From the NCBI GenBank assembly GCA_025677605.1, contig GCA_025677605.1_4110.1: 64,000 nt of DNA; one strand, given 5' to 3'. The DNA is from a phage. Positions 35 through 54,167 of the stretch are shown here, one piece after another. The notes beneath the pieces were generated by a model, which worked only from the letters and a program-made list of their open reading frames with translations, did not search any database and was not told the origin of the DNA. Position numbers and translations under genes: made by a program. Position 1 is the stretch's first letter; every line of letters starts with the position of its first letter.

Positions 35-634
35 TCAATCCTCAGTGAGAATACAGTTCAGGTACGAACACAGTTCATCGTAGAAGAGTTTGTCCAGTAC
101 TGTAAGGTAACAGATACCGTTCTCTTTCATTGCAGCCTGTATCTTATCATAACCATTCACTGTGTCAAGGATTTCTTGATAAGATAATGCATCATCATTA
201 ACAGTACTACTCTGGAATGCCATTTCTTCTATGTTATCGATGGGTTCCTCATCGGAATTTAAGAAGCCTCCATTTTGATATATAATGTAATCTTCATTCC
301 ATGATTTAGTGAAACGGAGCAGGATAGGTTCATTAGCGAACATTTCGATATCACCACTTTCAATGTCGTATGAACAATATAGATTACAGTCTTCATCTAT
401 GAATTCTGCCATAAAGATTGCAGTTCGAGAACCATCATATACATAAACTCCAGTTTTGTTCATCTCAACATCAACTGCCATTCCATTTTTGAATTGCATT
501 CGAATCGTGATTTTAAGACTTTGGAGTATGTTATTTTCTGTATCTTTAACACTATACAATCCACGATATCGTAACCACAAATCTTTGATAGTACTTAAAG
601 AATTGATTAAGTCTTCATTGGGATCTTTTTTCAT
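35..634 (-). CDS. FQ-motif family protein (uncharacterized tandem paralog)
   Basis: 199 aa ORF; motif EEMAFQSSTV near C-terminus; ATGA overlap with next gene. Confidence 0.6.
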   Translation of the reverse strand: MKKDPNEDLINSLSTIKDLWLRYRGLYSVKDTENNILQSLKITIRMQFKNGMAVDVEMNKTGVYVYDGSRTAIFMAEFIDEDCNLYCSYDIESGDIEMFANEPILLRFTKSWNEDYIIYQNGGFLNSDEEPIDNIEEMAFQSSTVNDDALSYQEILDTVNGYDKIQAAMKENGICYLTVLDKLFYDELCSYLNCILTED

Positions 635-6054: not shown

Positions 6055-6086
6055 AAAGAAAAAAGCCAGAGTCAATACCCTGGCTT
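6055..6086 (-). terminator. rho-independent terminator after MCP-like gene
   Basis: hairpin GCCAG...CTGGC followed by T-run on minus strand, directly downstream of the 6092 stop. Confidence 0.55.
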
Positions 6087-6091
6087 TAAAA

Positions 6092-7504
6092 TTATTTCAC
6101 GTTAAAAATCGAAGTGGCTTTTTGTAAAGCATGTACTTCAGACTGTTGATTGTCTACCATCATCATTGTGTCCTTGACATGCTCCGCATTTTGCTGTACT
6201 GAACGGTCCATCATATTAACACTCTCGGTAACCTGAAGGATTGCAATGCTTTGTTGTTCAGCCATTATAGCTAAATCATCAATGAACTGCAAGAGAGAAT
6301 CAACATTTTTTACAATAGAATCAATATCACTTGCAGTTTCGTTGATTTGTTCTATTCCTTGGTTGTTGTTTTTTACAGAGTTATCAACGATTTCTTTAAT
6401 TTCTTTACTACATGCATCACATTTCATTGCTAAGTTACGAACTTCCTGTGCAACAACAGAGAATCCACGTCCATGTTCACCCGCTTTAGCAGCCTCAATA
6501 CTGGCATTTAAAGAAAGAATATTAGTCTGGAAAGCAATAGTTTCTATATTTTTGAGTATAGCAACTATAGCATTAGAATCTTCTTTAATTCTATCCATCT
6601 GCTCTTTGCAATTATTAATACTTTCAATTGCATTAGTACTGGATTCTTTTGTAGTTTTAACCATACTTTTTGCAGTATTGGAGTTATCAGATGTATTTGC
6701 AGATGTAGCACTTAATTCTTCCATAGCAGCAGCGATTTGAGTAAGTGCCTGTCCTTGTGTTTCAGTTCTGAAAGCTAAATCATTACTTTTACTTTCGAGA
6801 TGATAGGAGTTGCTTTTCATTGACTGAACTGTAATTTGTACTTGTTCAATTGCCTCACGCATAGCTGATATTGTTTTACTAAAAGTCTGTGCAAATTCTG
6901 AGTTGAAATGATTATTTTGTATTTCTAAAGTAATATTGCCGTCTTCAGAATTCACCGAATGGGCAATTCGTTGAATTTCATCTGCTTCATTTGCATCTTT
7001 CTCCATAATATACGCAACGTACATCAGAACTATTGCCTGTACTACTACATATATTGCGTGCTCTATAATGTGCCATAACGAAATATGGTGAAAAGAAAAC
7101 ACGAATAATATTGGAATTCCAGCACCCTGTAACAATCCAAATAATAAATGATGTATAGCAATCAGTACTGAACCTGCTAATACACAACGCCAGTCACGCC
7201 ATACAATCAATAAACTTAAAAAGACAAAAACTGTAAAGTGCCATTCCACCATCCCTAAGCCAAGATGTATTAGTAACGCACTCCAGCACATCACATTTAT
7301 ACTTAACAACGTTCGAGTGAACGCATTACTTTCAACAAATAGTAAAGGAGTTAGCATTACTAATAATAAAACTGCACCGATTAGTGCAATAATAAAACTA
7401 CCATGAACAACACCGGAAACTAAAGTAACAGCAAATAAAGCCCCTATACAACATAGTACTAAATTATCGGCTTTTTTGCGTATATTTTCTAAATTACTTT
7501 TCAA
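6092..7504 (-). CDS. methyl-accepting chemotaxis protein-like (N-terminal multi-helix His-rich membrane domain, C-terminal MCP signalling domain)
   Basis: 470 aa; signalling-domain signature [37 protein letters not shown]; about 6 hydrophobic helices in first 170 aa. Confidence 0.8.
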
Positions 7505-8049: not shown

Positions 8050-8080
8050 AAAATACGCTCTCTTTTAAATAGGTTACAAT

Positions 8081-8109
8081 ATTCTAACACTCTACATTAC
8101 TAATGTCAA
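8081..8109 (-). promoter_or_regulatory. sigma70-like promoter for 7501..8049 + MCP unit
   Basis: minus strand TTGACA, 17 nt spacer, TAGAAT; about 30 nt upstream of ATG at 8049. Confidence 0.45.
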
Positions 8110-33540: not shown

Positions 33541-33689
33541 TTTGAATCTCCTAACTTTGTGGACCGTCGCACCATTGCCGCCCTACGAGATACATTATTG
33601 CAGTACTGCTATACTTTGTCAATAGTTTTTTATTAATAGTTTTCACTCCACCAGCAGATAGTTACTCACCGTTATTAACTATATATTTT

Positions 33690-33730
33690 AGATACACCTA
33701 TGCACCCGGTGGGCTAGTTTTTGTCTATGC
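33690..33730 (-). repeat. conserved noncoding element (CCCACCGGGTGC core), copy 1
   Basis: atgcacccggtgggctag; follows a promoter-in-terminator on the minus strand. Confidence 0.5.
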
Positions 33731-33742
33731 GTATATAATAGC

Positions 33743-33774
33743 AAAGGGACTGACCGGAGTCAATCCCTTTTTTT
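33743..33774 (-). terminator. terminator hairpin with embedded -35/-10
   Basis: aaagggactgaccggagtcaatcccttttttt; stem contains TTGACT and is followed by TATTAT on the minus strand. Confidence 0.45.
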
Positions 33775-33785
33775 ATTCTTTTTTG

Positions 33786-33986
33786 TTAGATGATCTTCCA
33801 ATCTTCCACGATCATTGTAAGATACCGAACCATCGATTCGAGTGATTCGAATTCACGATAATCTGTCGCCCCACCAGCGGTACAAGTACAGCCGATTAAG
33901 CCGGATTGTAGTTCCTGGATCTTTACGTCGATCAGGTTAGCTTTAGCATCTTTCAGTACTTCAACCAGGGCGATAGCGATAGACAT
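33786..33986 (-). CDS. hypothetical small protein
   Basis: 66 aa; ATG at 33984-33986 with RBS ggag. Confidence 0.5.
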   Translation of the reverse strand: MSIAIALVEVLKDAKANLIDVKIQELQSGLIGCTCTAGGATDYREFESLESMVRYLTMIVEDWKII

Positions 33987-36410: not shown

Positions 36411-36632
36411 TTAATTACGTTTAAAATGATATGTGCCTTTATCATCCTGTACGCCCCATACTGATTTACCATCAACACCAGTGAAGCCGGATTGTAATTC
36501 AATATGGAAACCATTATTATCAACTACAAAAACTTTTTTATTTTCATCCCGATAACATTGATATTCTGAATCAACATTAAAGGCCGCATCATTCAGAAGA
36601 TTGGAAGCGTAAATGCAAGTCATTGTAGTCAT
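36411..36632 (-). CDS. hypothetical small protein
   Basis: start moved to MTTMTC (ATG 36630-36632) after RBS aagga. Confidence 0.5.
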   Translation of the reverse strand: MTTMTCIYASNLLNDAAFNVDSEYQCYRDENKKVFVVDNNGFHIELQSGFTGVDGKSVWGVQDDKGTYHFKRN

Positions 36633-36684
36633 GATTTTATTCCTTATTACCAGGGAGAACCGTTCCCCCCTCTCGATATAAAAC

Positions 36685-36712
36685 ATTATACTTGATTCTA
36701 AGTACAATGCAA
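36685..36712 (-). promoter_or_regulatory. sigma70-like early promoter
   Basis: minus strand TTGCAT, 16 nt spacer, TATAAT, followed by GC-rich hairpin 36651-36672. Confidence 0.55.
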
Positions 36713-36800: not shown

Positions 36801-36854
36801 TGACTATATAATAGCAAAGGGACTGACTGGAGTCAATCCCTTTTTTAATCTTTT

Positions 36855-37439
36855 TTATCGTGTTATAGTTACGGCTTTTACGTCGCGTTGTTTATAGTAC
36901 TGATTCCAGATATTGCGGGTTAAACCGTAATCAAGTACTTTAATCAGGCCATTGCGATCTTGGCCTATGTTCTGCTTTCTGATATCTCTTATCGTTAGTG
37001 TTGATAAGGTATCATCAACGTGTTGTAGTGCATCAGCGAAATGGTGTTGGCGTTCAATAGTGTTACGTTTGACATTGTACTTTAATTCATTGCAAGCGTT
37101 AACGTGCTTTACACTGCCTTTGCTTGCAGTACTCAAACGATCCATAACAATAAACATATTATCAGGATCGCTTAAATGCATATGCACCTTAGCAAAGTAC
37201 TGTTTAAGGTGAGGGCGGTCATAATCTAAAAAATTCCATACCTTACATTCTGTTTCATTTTGTTCTACGCCAGCGTCACAATTAGCGACCTTAATCACTA
37301 ACCGATCATTTAAAGCGAATACGATACGGGATGATCCGGCCCCGATGATCTCCAGACCAGCCAACCGACAAGCTGTAAGGATCTCTTTGTTAGTTTCCAT
37401 TTCTGCCAGTGTACGGATGAATTTAGTATAATTACGCAT
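36855..37439 (-). CDS. minimal protein kinase-like protein (ePK-like fold, tentative)
   Basis: 194 aa; IGAGSSRIVF (Gly loop), VIKV (Lys), DIRKQNIG (catalytic-loop-like), KVLDYG (DFG-like). Confidence 0.45.
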   Translation of the reverse strand: MRNYTKFIRTLAEMETNKEILTACRLAGLEIIGAGSSRIVFALNDRLVIKVANCDAGVEQNETECKVWNFLDYDRPHLKQYFAKVHMHLSDPDNMFIVMDRLSTASKGSVKHVNACNELKYNVKRNTIERQHHFADALQHVDDTLSTLTIRDIRKQNIGQDRNGLIKVLDYGLTRNIWNQYYKQRDVKAVTITR

Positions 37440-40008: not shown

Positions 40009-40054
40009 GTACTTTTTTAAAAATAGTTTTCAGTACTAGCCACCAGCAAACAAT

Positions 40055-40095
40055 AGATACATTTATGCACCCGGTGGGCTAGTTTTTGTCTATGC
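40055..40095 (-). repeat. conserved noncoding element, copy 3
   Basis: atgcacccggtgggctag; hairpin 40107-40136. Confidence 0.45.
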
Positions 40096-40147
40096 ATATA
40101 TAATAGCAAAGGGACTGACCGGAGTCAATCCCTTTTTTCAATTTATT

Positions 40148-40297
40148 TTATGCCTCGCGAGGGTTGCGATATGTGATAGCGTTCGGGTACATTTGTTTTA
40201 AGTTATTCCACGCCTGGTTAACACTGTATCCGCTGGACCGTATCAGTTGATGCATACCTTTACCCAAAAACGTAACTTCGAAAATGTATTCTTTCAT
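40148..40297 (-). CDS. hypothetical small protein (below ORF-track cutoff)
   Basis: 49 aa MKEYIFEVTFLGKGMHQ...; ATGA overlap with upstream ORF. Confidence 0.35.
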   Translation of the reverse strand: MKEYIFEVTFLGKGMHQLIRSSGYSVNQAWNNLKQMYPNAITYRNPREA

Positions 40298-42766: not shown

Positions 42767-42799
42767 TGTAGTACTCCTTATTAGATTGATATATTTTAT

Positions 42800-42840
42800 T
42801 TACACTTCCGCACCCTGTGGGCTAGTGAGCTATCTCTCAA
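42800..42840 (-). repeat. conserved noncoding element, copy 4
   Basis: ccgcaccctgtgggctag; hairpin 42859-42886. Confidence 0.45.
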
Positions 42841-43108
42841 TGAATATATAATAGCAAAATGGCTGACCGAAGTCAACCACTTTTTTCATTTATTTTTAGC
42901 TTTTAGAATCGCCGCTTTTCGCGTCATGCCTTGCTTGATGTACTCCTTTACTTTCGCTTTACGTGCTTTCGCTTTATCTGCTTTCGTTTTAGGAGTACTG
43001 TAAATTAAACCGTTAGGATTCATTTAAATCACCATAAAGAATAGATAGGTTACTAACAATGCCGCGATCAATGCACCGATCACCGCCGAACTGTAATAAG
43101 CCAATGAT

Positions 43109-47460: not shown

Positions 47461-47697
47461 TTATGATTTTTTATAAAACATTTCGGCAGTGATATTTTTA
47501 CCCGTTGGTTGTACTTTATCCAGGATTTTTTGATGCCCGGACCGTCCAAATGAATATGATCCGTAAACCGTAAACCAGTAGTTACCCTCAGTGTTTACAT
47601 GTACAGCACAATAGGGAACGCCCCGCGATTCATCACTAGTAAAGTGTGCTACCGTTCCCGTTACATTCGAAGACGTTGATTTGATTTGTTCGACCAT
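47461..47697 (-). CDS. hypothetical small protein
   Basis: 78 aa; ATG 47695-47697. Confidence 0.5.
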   Translation of the reverse strand: MVEQIKSTSSNVTGTVAHFTSDESRGVPYCAVHVNTEGNYWFTVYGSYSFGRSGHQKILDKVQPTGKNITAEMFYKKS

Positions 47698-47805
47698 TTT
47701 CTTATTCCTTAGTTACCAGGGGAACCGCTCCCCCTATGCAAAACATTATACGCGTTTAAAAACTATTAGCAAGTATTTTAATAAAAAGTATTTGAAAAAT
47801 AGTTC

Positions 47806-47834
47806 TTGACAACTGCATCCAATACTGGCATAAT
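47806..47834 (+). promoter_or_regulatory. plus-strand sigma70-like promoter
   Basis: TTGACA, 17 nt spacer, CATAAT on plus strand in an otherwise minus-strand region. Confidence 0.45.
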
Positions 47835-47840
47835 TACTAC

Positions 47841-47947
47841 ATAAAGACAAAACAGTCTCTAACCCACCGGGTGCATAGATCCGTCTATTAAATGATTCAG
47901 TACTGAAAAAAGAAAGGGGATCAATTGATCCCCTCGTTGTTATTTTG
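47841..47947 (+). ncRNA. candidate small RNA containing the conserved CCCACCGGGTGC element
   Basis: promoter upstream; palindromic hairpin GGGGATCAATTGATCCCC at 47916-47933 followed by T-rich tract; no ORF. Confidence 0.25.
47906..47933 (-). terminator. rho-independent terminator (bidirectional)
   Basis: GGGGATCAATTGATCCCC with T-run on minus strand after the 47940 stop. Confidence 0.5.
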
Positions 47948-48161
47948 TAAGGTATAAACAGAAGTCACCTTTATTTGCTACGCCGCCAGTGTAACGCGAT
48001 GAATAGTTAGAAACGTCCTGGACTTCTGCTATTACCAGTGTATCATCATTCAATTCGTCGCAGAAGCAAACGGCTGGATCTTTTACGCCGATATTGTCGG
48101 CATGTTCCCGCATAGATTTAACCAGTGCTTCAAGTTGGGAAAGGGTAGTAATGTTAGCCAT
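47940..48161 (-). CDS. hypothetical small protein
   Basis: start moved to MANITTLSQ (ATG 48159-48161). Confidence 0.5.
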   Translation of the reverse strand: MANITTLSQLEALVKSMREHADNIGVKDPAVCFCDELNDDTLVIAEVQDVSNYSSRYTGGVANKGDFCLYLTK

Positions 48162-48246
48162 TTTATTTTCCTCATTACCAGGGAGAACCATTTCTCCCCT
48201 CTATGTAAACCATTATACAGTACTAAAAACTAATTGCAAGTACTTT

Positions 48247-49203: not shown

Positions 49204-49878
49204 TTAATATTCGATTGATTCTACTACGCCATCAATAACATTGAATTGATATTCGTTACCCTCAATCAGTGCCGTAATGTTTTCAGTAGTGAATTGATCC
49301 TCATATGCATTCTCTAAATCACGGTACAACTTGCGGGATAATTCACGAATAGTTTCAGTGAGTAGTTCCTCAAGCTCATTAACTAACGCTTCTTGTTTTG
49401 CGGTTAAATCAGTGTAAGCCGATTCAATGTACCCGCTTACAGTGTTTTCATGCGAGTAGTTGGAGTGAGAACGCTTTACACTCATTGCCAAATCATCTTC
49501 ATTCAGCAGGTGACGGATTGAGCGATACTTAGTTAATGCTCTAACCTTGCGTAAAAACTTCTCAGCGTCAACGTGGTCAGTACTAATTGATGCACCGTCA
49601 CCCTGCGACCAAAAACCACTGAATTGTATTTCAGCGTCATTAATGCCATATTCCGGTAGTACTGTTTCTTTATAGTATTCAATTTCACTTTCAGAAAAAT
49701 AATCGTCGTTTAAGTTTTTTTCACGTTCCCGAACCAGTTCGATAGCTGACGTTTGTTGTTCTGCGTTCAATTCAGAAAAATCCATAACGAAAGTAGTATT
49801 AGTGACAGTTTTCGCTTTGCAACCCTCATTCAATTCAGAAAAATCCATAACGAAAGTAGTAGTAGTGATAGTTTTCAT
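49204..49878 (-). CDS. hypothetical protein with N-terminal tandem duplication
   Basis: 224 aa; 21-aa unit TTFVMDFSELN repeated twice from a 63-bp direct DNA repeat near 49743-49870. Confidence 0.55.
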   Translation of the reverse strand: MKTITTTTFVMDFSELNEGCKAKTVTNTTFVMDFSELNAEQQTSAIELVREREKNLNDDYFSESEIEYYKETVLPEYGINDAEIQFSGFWSQGDGASISTDHVDAEKFLRKVRALTKYRSIRHLLNEDDLAMSVKRSHSNYSHENTVSGYIESAYTDLTAKQEALVNELEELLTETIRELSRKLYRDLENAYEDQFTTENITALIEGNEYQFNVIDGVVESIEY

Positions 49879-50021: not shown

Positions 50022-50109
50022 GTAAAACATTATACGCCTTTAAACATAGTTTGCAAGTACTTTTTATCAAATAGTTTTCAGTACTGGCATTGTACTTAAT
50101 CACTTTACT

Positions 50110-50145
50110 ATAGATACACTTCCGCACCCTATGGGCTATCGCCTT
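50110..50145 (-). repeat. conserved noncoding element, copy 5
   Basis: ccgcaccctatgggctat. Confidence 0.45.
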
Positions 50146-50197
50146 GTGTCCGGCTTGTAAGTATTATCTCACTAAGCCGGATAATGGTCAAGTACTT

Positions 50198-51534: not shown

Positions 51535-52044
51535 TTAAGAGTACTTTTTAAAATATTTTATTATTGTTTCCTTTGTAACTCCAAATTTTCTACCCAATGC
51601 AGTAGCACCATAAACGCGATCCCCTGGCTTATAATGTGTTATAATGTATTGTGTATCGTCGGCGGTCAAACGTGCCTTATCGTTATCATATCCCGTTAAA
51701 CGTGGTTTAACTAATCCAGAATCAAACGCATGTTTAACATTTTCGCTATTGGTTGCCCATTCCAACGCGGTGTAATGATTGTTCGCCTTTCCCTTTAAAT
51801 GATTAACTTGAACTATCTTATAGTGAGTTTTTGCAGCCCATGCGATTTGTTCCGCAGTAGGCGGTGATAGATAGTTATTAGCAACCAATCTATGAACAAA
51901 ATGATCCCCATCGTTTAACGATACTCTTTGATAACCTTTTTCGGTTATACGTGGTTTAAGATTGGTTGTAGTGCCAATCTTTCTAACATCCCCATACTCG
52001 CTAACTTCATATAAATTATTTTCTTTTAGTACCTTCCATTGCAT
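51535..52044 (-). CDS. HNH homing endonuclease
   Basis: 169 aa; LYEVSEYGDVRK...KGYQRVSL...HFVHRLVANNY typical of phage HNH endonucleases. Confidence 0.75.
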   Translation of the reverse strand: MQWKVLKENNLYEVSEYGDVRKIGTTTNLKPRITEKGYQRVSLNDGDHFVHRLVANNYLSPPTAEQIAWAAKTHYKIVQVNHLKGKANNHYTALEWATNSENVKHAFDSGLVKPRLTGYDNDKARLTADDTQYIITHYKPGDRVYGATALGRKFGVTKETIIKYFKKYS

Positions 52045-52118: not shown

Positions 52119-52146
52119 TTGCATTCTGTACGGCATAGCGTATAAT
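52119..52146 (+). promoter_or_regulatory. plus-strand sigma70-like promoter
   Basis: TTGCAT, 16 nt spacer, TATAAT, then TACTACATAAG...CTAACCCACAGGGTGC element. Confidence 0.45.
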
Positions 52147-52200
52147 TACTACATAAGCCGGAAACAAGGCACTAACCCACAGGGTGCCGAGATCCGCCCA
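52147..52200 (+). repeat. conserved noncoding element, copy 7 (plus orientation)
   Basis: tactacataagccggaaacaaggcactaacccacagggtgccgagatccgcc. Confidence 0.45.
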
Positions 52201-52334
52201 AAATTCATATAATTTAAAAAGGATACACTCCCGCACCCTAGCAGGTCAAAGCACTTTCTCAGTACTGAATCATAGTACCATAGTACGCCCCAGGATGGCA
52301 AGCAAATTAATTAAAACTTTTTACACTTAGGCTA

Positions 52335-52363
52335 TTGCTTTTATAATTCAGTACTGCTATAAT
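52335..52363 (+). promoter_or_regulatory. plus-strand sigma70-like promoter
   Basis: TTGCTT, 17 nt spacer, TATAAT. Confidence 0.4.
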
Positions 52364-52374
52364 TATTTCATCAA

Positions 52375-52415
52375 GTCGAGAAAGACTCTAGCCCACCGGG
52401 TGCATAGTTACGCCC
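52375..52415 (+). repeat. conserved noncoding element, copy 8 (plus orientation)
   Basis: ctctagcccaccgggtgcatagttacgcc. Confidence 0.45.
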
Positions 52416-52587
52416 AAAATTCAGTACTAGATTATTTTTAAAAATATTCATCCAGGCGGTTGACATACCCCGCTAAAACTGGGATAATGTTTCCAGATTC
52501 AGAAAAATCTAACTCCAGATACTGCGGGGAAACCATCCCCACGCGGTAGGGGAACTATTGGAAAAAACAAAATAAAAATTTTGATTT

Positions 52588-52765
52588 AGCCGTCTATACA
52601 TCCAGACGTGTAACCATCTAGCCATCTAGCCGTCCAAACGTCTAGCAGTACAGCCATCTAGAAATCTAGCCATCTAGAAATCTAGCCATCCAGCCGTCTA
52701 GAGGGATAGCCATCTTTACTTCCAGACTTCTGGAGGGCTAGACATCTCTACGTCCAAAATCCACC
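52588..52765. repeat. CTAG-rich short direct repeat array
   Basis: about a dozen CTAG-containing 8-12 bp units (ccatctagcc, cgtctag, gaaatctagcc) within about 180 bp; no ORF. Confidence 0.6.
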
Positions 52766-53341
52766 CAGGGTTACTACGCCCAAAATCCGTCAGTACTATA
52801 CCATAGATCTATCTTTAAGAAGGGAGTATTCAGTACTGCCATCATAGTCCTCACTATGTTACCCTAGGAGGATGAAGACTATCATGTAGTACTGAATACT
52901 TTTAAGGGGAATATCATCACATTGCGTGATGCATTATATATTAGATTAATATCAGTACTGCTACCATTCTGTTAATAACAGTACTGTTTATATTACGAAA
53001 AAAGAGGTTGTCAAAGATGAACCACTGCATAGGAGGATTCAATCTCTTCTGTACTGTCTCACGACAGGAGGGTTAAGGCTCTGAATTGTTTGCGGCAATT
53101 CATCACTCTATGTAGAACATTATACAGTACTGAATCATAATGTCAATAGATTTCTTCCATTATTCAGTACTGAAAACATATCTTCTGTATCTCTTCAAAA
53201 CTCATTATATCCCACTAATCCTATATGTCCCAATGTAAATTTCAACTTTCGAAGATCCAACTTTTATTTCATAGGTACTCCAAAATTTTTACGATCCAGA
53301 TTTACGATGGAGTACTAACCAACTTTTTGCTGGAGCCTCAA

Positions 53342-53400
53342 GGGGTATTCGGAATTTTCCCCAATGGGTATTCGGGATTTTTGACGAAGGGTAAATTGAA
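53342..53400. repeat. tandem direct repeat GGGTATTCGGAATTTT
   Basis: two adjacent near-identical 18-20 bp units. Confidence 0.5.
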
Positions 53401-53590
53401 CTTTTTTGAATAGGTGATTGGGAGTTTTCAGTACTGGTCATTCCGTGATTACTTTTGATTGGAAATGATTTGTTTTGCAATTGTTCAGTACTGTAAAATT
53501 ATGTAAATTTTGGGCGACTTCATTTGCCTACTTAGTGGGATATCAGTACTGAATCATTCCTGCACTCTAGTACTCAATACTCTTCACTAC

Positions 53591-53653
53591 AATGATTATA
53601 AATGATTACTTAAATGTTTATATATGATTACTTATGACTACCTATGATTACGG
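53591..53653. repeat. ATGATTAC iteron-like repeats
   Basis: 5 copies of ATGATTA(C/T) in 63 bp. Confidence 0.55.
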
Positions 53654-53776
53654 GGTTTAGCCTGGGGAGAATCCTAGTGATCGCATTTGTCCAGGCTGAA
53701 TTTTAACATATGCAACATATGTTAAAGCCTGTATAATGCTTGCACTACGGAGCTTCCCCTAGCTATATGTGTTTAA

Positions 53777-53974
53777 TTACTTCCTATATATAAGCATTAA
53801 GATATAGTAGTACTGATTGTACTGTACATTCTCTAGAACAGGAGAAGGGTCTATTGCTATATTAGTACATTTATTAAATTCATATCGAGTCATTGGTAGA
53901 GGGATTAGAGCGTTAATCCATACTTGTTCATTCTCTTTGAGTTTACTTATATAGAATTCTTTATGGTCATTCAT
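53777..53974 (-). CDS. YKEFY-family small protein
   Basis: start moved to MNDHKEFYISKL; C-terminal LMLIYRK. Confidence 0.5.
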   Translation of the reverse strand: MNDHKEFYISKLKENEQVWINALIPLPMTRYEFNKCTNIAIDPSPVLENVQYNQYYYILMLIYRK

Positions 53975-53975
53975 A

Positions 53976-54167
53976 TTAGTGTCTGTATATAAGTAATAGT
54001 AAGAATACGTACTGCACCTGTTCATCTTTAGTATTGAGTACTGTACGTATTGCGTCCTTAAACAAGAATATAGAACTTGGGTCATGGGAATTTAAAGGGA
54101 TTACGGGGACGGCATCTTTGTAGTTCTCTTTAACAAATTGTTTATAGTATTCTTTATAATTATCCAT
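53976..54167 (-). CDS. YKEFY-family small protein
   Basis: 63 aa MDNYKEYYKQF...LLLLIYRH. Confidence 0.55.
   Translation of the reverse strand: MDNYKEYYKQFVKENYKDAVPVIPLNSHDPSSIFLFKDAIRTVLNTKDEQVQYVFLLLLIYRH

What the first reader, a model, noticed from the sequence alone, without database searches (positions are those of the whole stretch)
47806..47947. Plus-strand promoter-element-terminator unit in a minus-strand region: candidate small RNA
A plus-strand TTGACA, 17 nt spacer, CATAAT promoter is followed by about 100 nt containing the conserved CCCACCGGGTGC element and then the palindromic hairpin GGGGATCAATTGATCCCC with a T-rich tail. There is no ORF. Similar plus-strand promoter-element units occur at 52119-52200 and 52335-52415.
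Basis: inference. Interest (0 to 1): 0.5.

Follow-up and report, generated by a model that had tools for sequence, protein, structure and literature searches.

The report
Repeated small-RNA module of jumbo phages
The flagged stretch is one of nine copies in this window of an apparently undescribed cassette (strong host-type promoter plus short structured RNA) carried in the terminal repeat of Rak2-like giant phages of enterobacteria; at this site it forms a self-contained, roughly 100-nt non-coding transcription unit whose function is unknown.

Summary
TTGACA-17-CATAAT, with a TGn extended -10, lies at 47806-47834. It is followed by a 5' hairpin, the box CCCACCGGGTGC, and the hairpin AGGGGATCAATTGATCCCCT at 47915-47934. 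No ORF is present.

The window comes from an Asteriusvirus, a Rak2-like jumbo coliphage. A covariance model finds exactly nine copies of the element, all within about 32-53.5 kb. By homology to phage vB_Ec-M-J, that region is the direct terminal repeat.

More than 100 distinct copies occur in 68 jumbo-phage records from Escherichia, Klebsiella, Salmonella, Cronobacter, Pectobacterium, Erwinia, Yersinia and Serratia phages. None was found in bacterial genomes, Rfam or the searched literature. Nearly every copy sits 21 or 26-28 nt downstream of a near-consensus sigma-70 -10 element.

The 5' hairpin co-varies, with at least 20 different stems. The 30-nt block UAR-CCCAYM-GGGUGC-RGAARU-GYRUCUAU is almost invariant. 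Half of the copies have no downstream gene. They end either at a hairpin fixed 51-52 nt from the box, as here, or face a partner copy at exactly 58, 69 or 76 nt.

The small-RNA reading is therefore well supported by comparison, but there is no expression evidence. The hairpin is primarily the terminator of the convergent gene and would be used bidirectionally. The best guess at mechanism is a protein-recognised early RNA module.

The parts
47806..47834 (+). Sigma-70-type promoter: TTGACA, 17-nt spacer, TGn extended -10, CATAAT
   Evidence: 11/12 matches. Conserved in nine orthologues.
47841..47841 (+). Predicted transcription start (the A of CAT, 7 nt after the -10)
   Evidence: Inference from spacing. 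'CAT' lies at +6..+8 after the -10 in 69 of 127 copies.
47845..47858 (+). P1, the 5'-proximal hairpin: AGAC-AAAACA-GTCT
   Evidence: In the MFE fold. At least 20 different stems occur across the family, and 39 of 73 copies have 4 bp or more against about 13 expected. All 4 pairs show changes on both sides.
47860..47889 (+). Conserved 30-nt block: TAA-CCCACC-GGGTGC-ATAGAT-CCGTCTATT. The invariant box is 47863-47874. Two mutually exclusive small helices are possible: P2 at 47862-47865 with 47869-47872, and P3 at 47869-47875 with 47880-47886.
   Evidence: Per-column conservation. Pair counts. Model hit 47839-47901 at 54.8 bits.
47890..47914 (+). A/U-rich spacer containing the palindrome CAGTACTG (AGTACT at 47899-47904) and an A-run
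   Evidence: Nearly invariant among the nine orthologues. AGTACT sits at +28..+41 from the box in many copies.
47915..47934 (.). Bidirectional terminator-like hairpin AGGGGATCAATTGATCCCCT, shared with the convergent gene 47940-48191(-)
   Evidence: One search detects it on both strands. G17 annotates it as a minus-strand terminator. The stem shows compensatory changes. It starts +52 from the box, the modal +51/52 of this class.
47935..47947 (+). Moderately U-rich tail (CGTTGTTATTTTG). It overlaps the stop codon and last codons of gene 47940-48191(-). The RNA 3' end is expected here.
   Evidence: Inference.
52152..52214 (+). Family copy, half of a convergent pair
   Evidence: 49.7 bits.
52206..52268 (-). 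Degenerate family copy, partner of the convergent pair (antisense box 58 nt from the partner's box). Its P3 is followed by a T-run.
   Evidence: (31.1 bits).
52368..52430 (+). Family copy pointing towards the repeat-rich, ORF-free region next to the inferred terminal-repeat boundary
50097..50159 (-). Family copy, co-directional with the genes and upstream of a second promoter and gene 49204-49878
42783..42845 (-). Family copy serving directly as a 5' leader (ribosome-binding site and ATG about 55 nt after the box)
40040..40102 (-). Family copy of the short type, without P1
36743..36805 (-). Family copy, co-directional, upstream of a second promoter and gene 36411-36707
33675..33737 (-). Family copy of the short type, without P1

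Best explanation
47806-47947 is a self-contained early transcription unit. Host sigma-70 RNA polymerase would start at about A47841 and stop at the bidirectional hairpin 47915-47934, giving a non-coding RNA of about 100 nt.

The RNA belongs to a multi-copy family confined to the terminal-repeat early region of Rak2-like jumbo phages. Each member has three parts: a 5'-proximal hairpin of free sequence (P1), a practically invariant box CCCAYM-GGGUGC that can fold in two mutually exclusive ways (a 4-bp triloop hairpin P2, or a 6-7-bp GU-rich hairpin P3), and a YRUCUAU tail.

Shown here: the promoter, the repetition, the tight promoter-to-element linkage, P1 covariation, the fixed distance to the hairpin, and conservation across genera.

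Inferred:
(i) The transcript is made and ends at the hairpin.
(ii) P1 protects the 5' end.
(iii) The invariant box is a sequence-specific recognition site on the RNA for a phage or host protein. The many strongly expressed copies would then either titrate that factor or mark early transcripts for common handling.
(iv) Orientation is irrelevant because the RNA module, not a downstream gene, is the product.
For: - Promoter scores 11/12 with TGn.
- Nine copies in the window against 0.5 expected, and none elsewhere with filters off.
- More than 100 distinct copies in loci from jumbo-phage genomes of about 350 kb, and the block occurs in 68 phage records from 8 host genera.
- 96 of 127 copies have a promoter of 10/12 or better within 62 nt upstream, against 2.5% of random segments. 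The gap from the -10 to the box is bimodal, 21 or 26-28 nt.
- P1: at least 20 stem sequences, all four pairs with double changes, and about 3-fold enrichment of stems of 4 bp or more.
- The block from -3 to +26 is conserved, with nine of the twelve box positions invariant.
- 56 of 112 promoter-validated copies have no downstream gene. Of these, 22 have a hairpin at +46..53 (18 at +51/52), and 34 are in convergent pairs at exactly +58, +69 or +76.
- The orthologous unit is kept from E. coli to Klebsiella phages, with compensatory changes in the terminator stem and a swapped P1.
- In about 11 copies P3 itself is followed by a T-run, so there the module alone looks like the whole RNA.
- G-U-type variants (R-1:U9, U2:G6, R12:U17) fit the sense strand only.
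- No ORF, no tRNA, no Rfam family.
Against: - There is no expression data of any kind.
- P2 and P3 show only one-sided changes, so neither is proven, and column shuffles match the observed pairing. ViennaRNA gives both marginal stability: P2 is favoured in 70 of 127 copies and P3 in 19.
- Invariance without covariation fits recognition of DNA as well as of RNA.
- The hairpin has the better U-run on the opposite strand, and G17's depositors annotate it for the convergent gene. Plus-strand termination efficiency is therefore unknown.
- Half of the copies are co-directional 5' leaders of genes, so a stand-alone small RNA is not the only form.
- No partner protein or target was identified.
Confidence: 0.5

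Rival explanations
1. Co-transcriptional signal acting on RNA polymerase. The box would be a promoter-proximal pause and loading site. The small GC hairpin P2, G at +7/+8, U at +17 and usually G at +18 resemble the G(-10), Y(-1), G(+1) elemental pause. A factor loaded there, or the RNA itself as in nut, put or ops systems, would change elongation or termination, or a parked polymerase would act as an insulator.
For: - The element is always at a fixed short distance from a strong promoter and always in sense orientation.
- G7, G8 (invariant) and U17 (68 of 73) are highly conserved. They fall at -11, -10 and -1 of a pause register whose most enriched positions are -10, -1 and +1 (PMC11077087; the identities G, Y, G are from my own knowledge of Larson 2014 and Vvedenskaya 2014).
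- The early region is full of terminator-promoter junctions that a modified polymerase would need to cross.
- An invariant sequence together with a tiny hairpin recalls ops recognition on the non-template strand.
Against: - G at +18 is present in only 43 of 73 copies.
- Half of the copies run straight into a hairpin or a partner copy with nothing to express beyond, which is odd for an antiterminator.
- Same-strand copies are themselves preceded by terminators.
- No boxA is present. The similarity to ops is limited to one sub-variant and lacks the G5-T6 bases critical for RfaH (my alignment, from memory of the ops consensus).
- P1 covariation is not needed for this mechanism.
Confidence: 0.2
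2. PeSL-type DNA cassette. The unit would be a mobile promoter and stem-loop module like those of T4-type phages. The conserved block would be maintained as a double-stranded operator for early-promoter shut-off, and/or as homology for recombination between cassettes. The short RNA would be incidental.
For: - Many copies have the -35 embedded in a terminator hairpin followed by T's, exactly the PeSL design (PMC2839356).
- Copies flank small ORFan genes in a plastic early region.
- P1 is swapped between orthologous units and EJP2 has a different left flank, suggesting exchange between copies.
- The palindrome AGTACT, 12-fold enriched, accompanies the promoters and sits about 35 nt after the box, which looks like a DNA-binding site.
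Against: - The same consensus is held in phages of eight host genera whose flanks have diverged, which gene conversion within a genome does not explain.
- P1 covariation and the G-U-compatible variants are strand-specific.
- Published PeSLs have no conserved transcribed block.
- The distance to the terminator is fixed across unrelated hairpins.
Confidence: 0.15
3. Cis-antisense regulator of the convergent gene 47940-48191. The RNA's 3' part is complementary to that mRNA's terminator and 3' end, and would trigger RNase III cleavage or interference, as in 3'-overlapping type I toxin-antitoxin pairs.
For: The convergent arrangement with a shared hairpin is conserved. All copies of this class face the 3' end of a gene.
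Against: The same element occurs in convergent pairs and as co-directional leaders with no convergent gene. The conserved part is the 5' module, not the overlap. The neighbouring proteins have no recognisable toxin features.
Confidence: 0.08
4. Primer or activator transcripts for replication or terminal-repeat recombination. Strong promoters would fire into AT-rich DNA near the genome end, as at T4 oriF/oriG or the T7 primary origin.
For: All copies lie in the inferred terminal repeat. The plus-strand copies at 52.2-52.4 kb point into an ORF-free region with 11 tandem CCATCTAG units.
Against: Copies are spread over 19 kb in both orientations. A 5' hairpin and an invariant box are not features of known primer transcripts. 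The unit at 47806 ends at a terminator.
Confidence: 0.04

Closest known systems
PeSLs (promoter-early stem-loops) of T4-type phages (Arbiol et al. 2010, PMC2839356; Comeau et al. 2014, PMC4122927)
   Same: Repeated intergenic cassettes that combine a strong sigma-70-like early promoter, an AT-rich upstream region and a stem-loop terminator. They are concentrated among small ORFan early genes. Many copies here have the -35 inside a terminator hairpin.
   Different: PeSLs are defined by a promoter plus a stem-loop only. They have no conserved transcribed block, no co-varying 5' hairpin, and no stand-alone gene-less units with fixed spacing. Their proposed role is recombination, not an RNA product.
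Lambda nut (boxA and boxB) and HK022 put antitermination RNAs
   Same: Short promoter-proximal RNA elements with small hairpins, read once per transcript. The P1 loops (GAGAAA, GCGAAA) recall the GNRA-like boxB loops.
   Different: No boxA is present. P1 is absent in 16 of 73 copies. There are tens of copies per genome rather than two. Half the copies have no operon downstream.
ops / JUMPStart element recognised by RfaH
   Same: A short invariant leader element in sense orientation only. A tiny hairpin is possible. It overlaps a consensus-pause-like register. All host genera here are Enterobacterales.
   Different: The sequence differs from GGCGGTAGnnTG. Positions +12 to +16 are variable and the critical G5-T6 is missing.
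Enterobacterial small RNAs of the promoter, body, intrinsic-terminator type, including phage and prophage small RNAs
   Same: About 100 nt long, with its own sigma-70 promoter, an A/U-rich stretch before a terminator hairpin, and no ORF.
   Different: It is multi-copy, with an invariant internal box and a variable 5' end. It also occurs as an mRNA leader. No target complementarity was found, and no Rfam family matches.
Highly expressed non-coding RNAs in the terminal repeat of the related jumbo phage PA5oct (PMC7318152)
   Same: Non-coding transcripts from the terminal repeat of a Rak2-related jumbo phage, abundant throughout infection.
   Different: Those RNAs are 236-451 nt, lack known promoters, and are reported to have no sequence similarity outside PA5oct and MIJ3. 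No relation was shown here.

Membership tests
Any Rfam 15 family | Covariance-model score at or above the gathering threshold | tested here: not met
   No hit in the whole window at gathering thresholds. At E<=10 on 47830-47950, only terminator-like chance hits on the 47915-47934 hairpin appeared, and none on the box.
tRNA / tmRNA | Cloverleaf detected by ARAGORN | tested here: not met
   0 genes in the window.
PeSL cassette | Strong sigma-70-like promoter with an AT-rich upstream region | tested here: met
   96 of 127 copies score 10/12 or better. A-rich columns lie upstream.
PeSL cassette | Stable stem-loop (terminator) in or next to the promoter | tested here: inconclusive
   Many same-strand copies have the -35 inside a GC hairpin followed by T's. 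The unit at 47806 has none at its promoter. Its hairpin lies about 75 nt downstream of the predicted start.
PeSL cassette | Mediates recombination or shuffling of flanked ORFans (mini-circles) | not testable with these tools
   Only indirect hints: P1 swapped between orthologues and a different left flank in EJP2.
Lambda-type nut site | boxA (CGCUCUUA-like) next to a boxB hairpin | tested here: not met
   No boxA-like sequence in the conserved block (compared by eye with the consensus from memory). The hairpin is absent in 16 of 73 copies.
ops / RfaH site | GGCGGTAGnnTG in the leader | tested here: not met
   The best sub-variant, UGCGGAAGUGUA, shares 8 of 12 positions, but positions +12..+16 vary freely. 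The ops consensus is from memory.
Intrinsic terminator (for the plus-strand RNA) | GC-rich hairpin followed by a U-tract on the transcribed strand | tested here: inconclusive
   The hairpin passes the scan on both strands. The plus-strand tail has 5 T of 9 and the minus-strand tail is better.
Structured RNA (general) | Helices supported by compensatory changes | tested here: met
   Met for P1 only: 4 of 4 pairs have double changes, and no shuffle reaches the observed covariation score. P2 and P3 show one-sided changes only.
Host-derived or host-mimicking RNA | A counterpart in bacterial genomes | tested here: not met
   32 pattern hits in 596 Gb is fewer than chance predicts. All but one (L037, full length at only 33 bits, E 3e-4) are partial or below 24 bits for the model. 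No match in 5,426 E. coli genomes.

The most novel reading that the evidence does not exclude
The CCCAYM-GGGUGC module would be a new phage device for reprogramming the host at the level of RNA or RNA polymerase. One form is a promoter-proximal pause and loading signal that converts host polymerase into a phage-specific elongation state or a parked insulator. The other is a massively expressed decoy RNA that sequesters a host RNA-binding or immune factor in the first minutes of infection. In either case it would be deployed from the terminal repeat, the end of the linear genome. This would be a new class of early host-takeover element common to all Rak2-like jumbo phages.
Probability: 0.2. Interest if true: 0.8.

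Novelty: new variant of a known kind. Interest (0 to 1): 0.6.

Why it matters
Rak2-like jumbo phages are being developed for therapy against E. coli, Klebsiella and Salmonella, yet their early, terminal-repeat-encoded programme consists almost entirely of unknown small genes.

This work finds a 30-nt RNA block that is practically invariant in more than 100 copies across phages of eight host genera. It is always fused to the strongest host-type promoters, and half the time it has nothing to express but itself. That points to a central, unrecognised step of host takeover or early-transcript control.

The finding gives a concrete, testable handle: one motif, one box to mutate, and one RNA to use as bait for its binding partner. 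It also gives a ready-made covariance model for annotating these genomes. Current records leave the element unannotated, or label only unrelated features on the opposite strand.

Tried and rejected
- Rfam at gathering and at permissive thresholds gave nothing on the element. ARAGORN gave nothing.
- A literature search for the box sequence returned only unrelated hits. Papers on Asteriusvirus, CBB and PA5oct describe RpoD-like promoters and terminal-repeat non-coding RNAs but not this motif.
- Bacterial genomes gave fewer pattern hits than chance predicts, all weak or partial for the model. E. coli genomes gave no match. Host mimicry is therefore not supported.
- I looked for long-range covariation beyond P1 by mutual information. 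Only neighbouring positions were coupled, marking the subfamilies GUA and CCG at +18..+20.
- I considered a second promoter, with the box as a -35 substitute and TATAnT at +23..+28. The sixth position is T in only 39 of 73 copies, so I rejected this.
- I compared by eye with a DnaA box, a MotA box, CRISPR repeats or anti-CRISPR RNAs, ToxI, a CsrA site and rrn boxA/boxC. None fits the invariant positions. These consensus sequences are from memory, so this is a lead only.
- I considered a pseudoknot between the P1 loop AGAUA and the tail UAUCU. Loops such as GCGAAA show no matching change in the tail, so I rejected this.
- Pfam on ten neighbouring proteins gave only DUF1033 (weak) and a NUMOD4 motif, with no clue to a partner.

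Full report
**Origin of the window.** The 1-kb region around the finding is 93-95% identical to Asteriusvirus genomes of about 350 kb: Escherichia phages A4, G17, Sharanji and PBECO4. These are Rak2-like jumbo myoviruses. In G17 the equivalent region is a run of small hypothetical genes on one strand, separated by predicted terminators.

**The observation.** The sequence is as described.
- The promoter is TTGACA (47806-47811), a 17-nt spacer, and CATAAT (47829-47834), with TG at -15/-14. The scan scores it 11/12, the best in the 1.1-kb region scanned.
- The box CCCACCGGGTGC is at 47863-47874.
- The hairpin AGGGGATCAATTGATCCCCT is at 47915-47934.
- No ORF of 40 aa or more lies inside the unit. 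Only the last four bases of a mechanical 42-aa TTG ORF (47681-47809) touch its first bases.
- The hairpin is detected as terminator-like on both strands. The minus-strand tail (TCTTTTTTCA) is better than the plus-strand tail (CGTTGTTAT).
- The hairpin lies directly after the stop codon of the minus-strand gene 47940-48191, and G17's depositors annotate the equivalent hairpin as that gene's terminator.
- The hairpin is therefore primarily the convergent gene's terminator, and the plus-strand unit would use it in reverse.

**Repetition.** The box with up to 2 mismatches occurs 8 times in the window against 0.52 expected. I built a covariance model from 76 copies. Run with filters off, it finds exactly nine copies and nothing else at E<=1. 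Five lie on the gene (minus) strand at 33.7, 36.8, 40.1, 42.8 and 50.1 kb. Three lie on the plus strand at 47.9, 52.2 and 52.4 kb. One degenerate minus-strand copy at 52.2 kb is convergent with the 52.2-kb plus-strand copy.

**Distribution outside the window.**
- Pattern scans of IMG/VR followed by the model give about 100 further full-length hits, essentially all in contigs of 345-378 kb or fragments of such phages.
- The 34-nt consensus matches 68 GenBank phage records. All of those listed are jumbo phages of 310-386 kb, apart from one 52-kb Klebsiella record. Their hosts are Escherichia, Klebsiella, Salmonella, Erwinia, Yersinia, Serratia, Cronobacter and Pectobacterium.
- A scan of 596 Gb of bacterial and archaeal genomes gives 32 pattern matches, fewer than the roughly 70 expected by chance. 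All but one match the model only over the pattern itself or score below 24 bits; the exception is a full-length hit at only 33 bits.
- There is no match in 5,426 complete E. coli genomes.
- Rfam has no such family, and ARAGORN finds nothing.
- I found no description of the motif in papers on these phages.

**Anatomy of the family.** In 96 of 127 pattern-defined copies, the 62 nt upstream contain a sigma-70-type promoter with 10 or more of 12 matches. The commonest hexamers are TTGACA or TTGACT with TATTAT, CATAAT or TATAAT. Only 2.5% of random window segments score that high. The distance from the -10 to the box is bimodal, at 21 nt or 26-28 nt, and 'CAT' sits 6-8 nt after the -10 in 69 copies.

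The longer class carries a hairpin, P1, 2-4 nt from the predicted 5' end. At least 20 different stem sequences occur, for example AGAC/GUCU, GCC/GGC, UGAG/CUCA, UGGC/GCCG, AGCA/UGCU, GGAG/CUCC and UCCA/UGGA. Their loops are A-rich (GAGAAA, GCGAAA, AGAUAA, AGAACAA). Stems of 4 bp or more occur in 39 of 73 copies, against about 13 expected. All four pairs show changes on both sides, and no shuffle reaches the observed covariation score. Sixteen of 73 copies lack P1 and have a linear A-rich stretch instead (CAUAGACAAAAACUAG).

Downstream comes a 30-nt block conserved in register: U-A-R, CCCAYM, GGGUGC, RGAARU, GYRUCUAU. C0, C1, A3, G6-G10 are invariant, and C2, C11 and U17 are nearly so.

Two small helices are possible, and both use the GGGU segment.
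- P2 pairs R(-1)CCC with GGGU around a triloop. It is 96% paired.
- P3 pairs GGGUGCR with UGYRUCY around a tetraloop. It is 89% paired.

All variation is compatible with pairing (G:U to G:C, U:A to U:G, R:U), but it is one-sided. The column shuffles reproduce the observed values, so neither helix is proven. Mutual information shows no other long-range coupling. Thermodynamically both are marginal: P2 is favoured in 70 of 127 copies and P3 in 19. In about 11 copies, including window 52206-52268(-), P3 is directly followed by a T-run and is picked up as a terminator.

**Context classes.** I classified 112 promoter-validated distinct copies.
- 22 copies are followed by a GC hairpin starting 46-53 nt from the box, and 18 of these start at +51 or +52. 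The hairpins have unrelated sequences (GGGGATC.., GGGGAGT.., GGGAGAC.., AGTACTGG..). In every case I checked against a gene map (the window, G17, RaK2, Munch), the hairpin is the terminator of a convergent gene. The finding belongs to this class, at +52.
- 34 copies sit in convergent pairs, with the partner's antisense box at exactly +58, +69 or +76.
- 56 copies are co-directional with genes. They lie either upstream of a second promoter and its leader or, as at 42.8 kb, directly serve as the 5' leader.

Half of the copies therefore have nothing to express but themselves. The quantised spacings argue for a defined product or architecture rather than promoter noise.

**The orthologous unit.** I aligned nine orthologues: six Asteriusvirus (the window, G17, 121Q, EJP2, UB, PBECO4) and three Klebsiella phages (RaK2, KP13-7 and one unclassified record).
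- Invariant or nearly so: -35 TTGAC, CAGTACTGGCATAAT, the box, the spacer TCTATT..ATTCAGTACTGAA and the G and C runs of the hairpin.
- The hairpin stem changes compensatorily (GGGGATCAATTGATCCCC, GGGGAGTTATTATCTCCCC, GGGGATCGTTTGATCCCC).
- P1 is replaced, with AGAC/GTCT becoming GAC/GTC or GCC/GGC.
- EJP2 has a different left flank, beginning just upstream of the -35.

The unit therefore behaves as a conserved module with a boundary at its promoter.

**Genomic setting.** In phage vB_Ec-M-J the depositors annotate direct terminal repeats at 1-21,525. Window 52,600-54,158 aligns across the start of that phage's right repeat copy. This puts the repeat boundary at about 53.4-53.5 kb of the window, and the repeat-equivalent region at about 32.0-53.5 kb. 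All nine copies fall inside that region, and none lies in the other 42 kb. In CBB, fENko-Kae01 and Muenster the hits also lie in annotated terminal repeats. The CBB paper assigns RpoD-like promoters with UP elements to the early region and the terminal repeat.

I consider an RNA-level function most likely, for four reasons:
- The element is always in sense orientation at a fixed distance from the start.
- P1 co-varies.
- The G-U-type variants fit only the sense strand.
- Some copies end right after P3.

Because the box never co-varies while P1 does so freely, the box is probably read by sequence, most simply by a protein. Because the module occurs as a stand-alone RNA, in convergent pairs and as an mRNA leader, its role should be independent of what lies downstream. 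Candidate roles are protection of the 5' end by P1, together with titration of a factor or marking of early transcripts through the box.

This mechanistic part is inference, and I give the whole statement about 0.5.

**Rival explanations.**
- A co-transcriptional pause or loading signal. The hairpin, GG at -11/-10 and U at -1 fit a consensus-pause register.
- A PeSL-type DNA cassette whose block is an operator or recombination homology.
- Cis-antisense control of the convergent gene.
- Priming of replication near the genome end.

Each is listed in the report sections with its evidence and the result that would refute it.

**Comparison with known systems.** The closest published concept is the PeSL of T4-type phages. 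It shares the strong sigma-70 promoter, the stem-loop terminator and the ORFan-rich setting, and many copies here have the -35 inside a terminator hairpin. PeSLs, however, have no conserved transcribed module and no gene-less units.

The nut, put and ops elements share the idea of a short promoter-proximal signal. Their defining sequences are absent here.

The abundant non-coding RNAs from the terminal repeat of PA5oct, a relative, are an interesting parallel, but they are reported to have no sequence similarity outside PA5oct and MIJ3.

**Verdict.** The finding is real and non-random, and the small-RNA candidate is well supported by comparison. It is one member of an apparently undescribed, clade-wide RNA and promoter module. 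The function is unresolved.

Noticed in passing
whole window, e.g. 47435, 47455, 47899, 48219, 48239: The palindromic hexamer AGTACT occurs 269 times against about 21 expected from base composition, and CAGTACTG occurs 58 times. It is built into the second promoter class (AGTAC-TTGCAA, 16-nt spacer ending in AGTACTG, then TATAAT). It also sits in many P1 promoter spacers and about 28-41 nt after the box. It looks like a binding site for an unknown regulator.
   Followed up: partly
minus strand, e.g. 47745-47698 and 48212-48192: A second repeated leader follows TTGCAA/TTGCTA-16-TATAAT promoters: GTTTTACATAG, a G-rich hairpin (GGGGAGCGGTTCCCC), TGGTAAY, then a Shine-Dalgarno sequence. A loose regex finds 17 on the minus strand and none on the plus strand.
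   Followed up: partly
window 52588-52756: An array of about 11 tandem 8-mers, CCATCTAG, with related 16-, 32- and 40-nt periods. It lies in an ORF-free stretch about 0.7-0.9 kb from the inferred terminal-repeat boundary, downstream of three plus-strand promoters. Possible roles are iterons, a packaging or end-recognition site, or an injection signal.
   Followed up: partly
window ~53400-53500: Inferred boundary of the direct terminal repeat, by alignment to vB_Ec-M-J (repeat 1-21,525). The window therefore runs across the junction between unique sequence and the terminal repeat.
   Followed up: partly
related loci, e.g. L003 ~7110-7135, L015 ~6085-6110, L006 ~1275-1305, L048 ~8075-8105: All convergent pairs with 69- or 76-nt spacing carry a central palindrome matching the Fur box GATAATGATAATCATTATC at 13-17 of 19 positions, for example TGATAATGATAATCATTTAC. 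It is absent from the window's own 58-nt pair.
   Followed up: partly
window 33740-33790, 36810-36860, 40105-40155, 42850-42900: Same-strand copies have their -35 (TTGACT) inside a GC hairpin followed by T's (AAAAAGGGATTGACTCCGGTCAGTCCCTTTGCTATTAT). This is a fused terminator and promoter of the PeSL type.
   Followed up: partly
window 52762-52800: A fragment resembling the 3' half of the element (CCACCCAGGGTTACTACGCCCAAAATCCGTCAGTACT, compare 52392-52428) with no promoter. The model does not detect it at E<=1.
   Followed up: no
window 51535-52044 (-): A 169-aa ORF with an N-terminal NUMOD4 motif (E 4.7e-7), typical of homing-endonuclease-type DNA-binding modules. It is the last gene before the ORF-free terminal region.
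   Followed up: no
window 35-24430 (-): A long uninterrupted array of about 50 back-to-back minus-strand ORFs of about 110-215 aa, many of similar size. This suggests a paralogous gene array. No copy of the element lies there.
   Followed up: no
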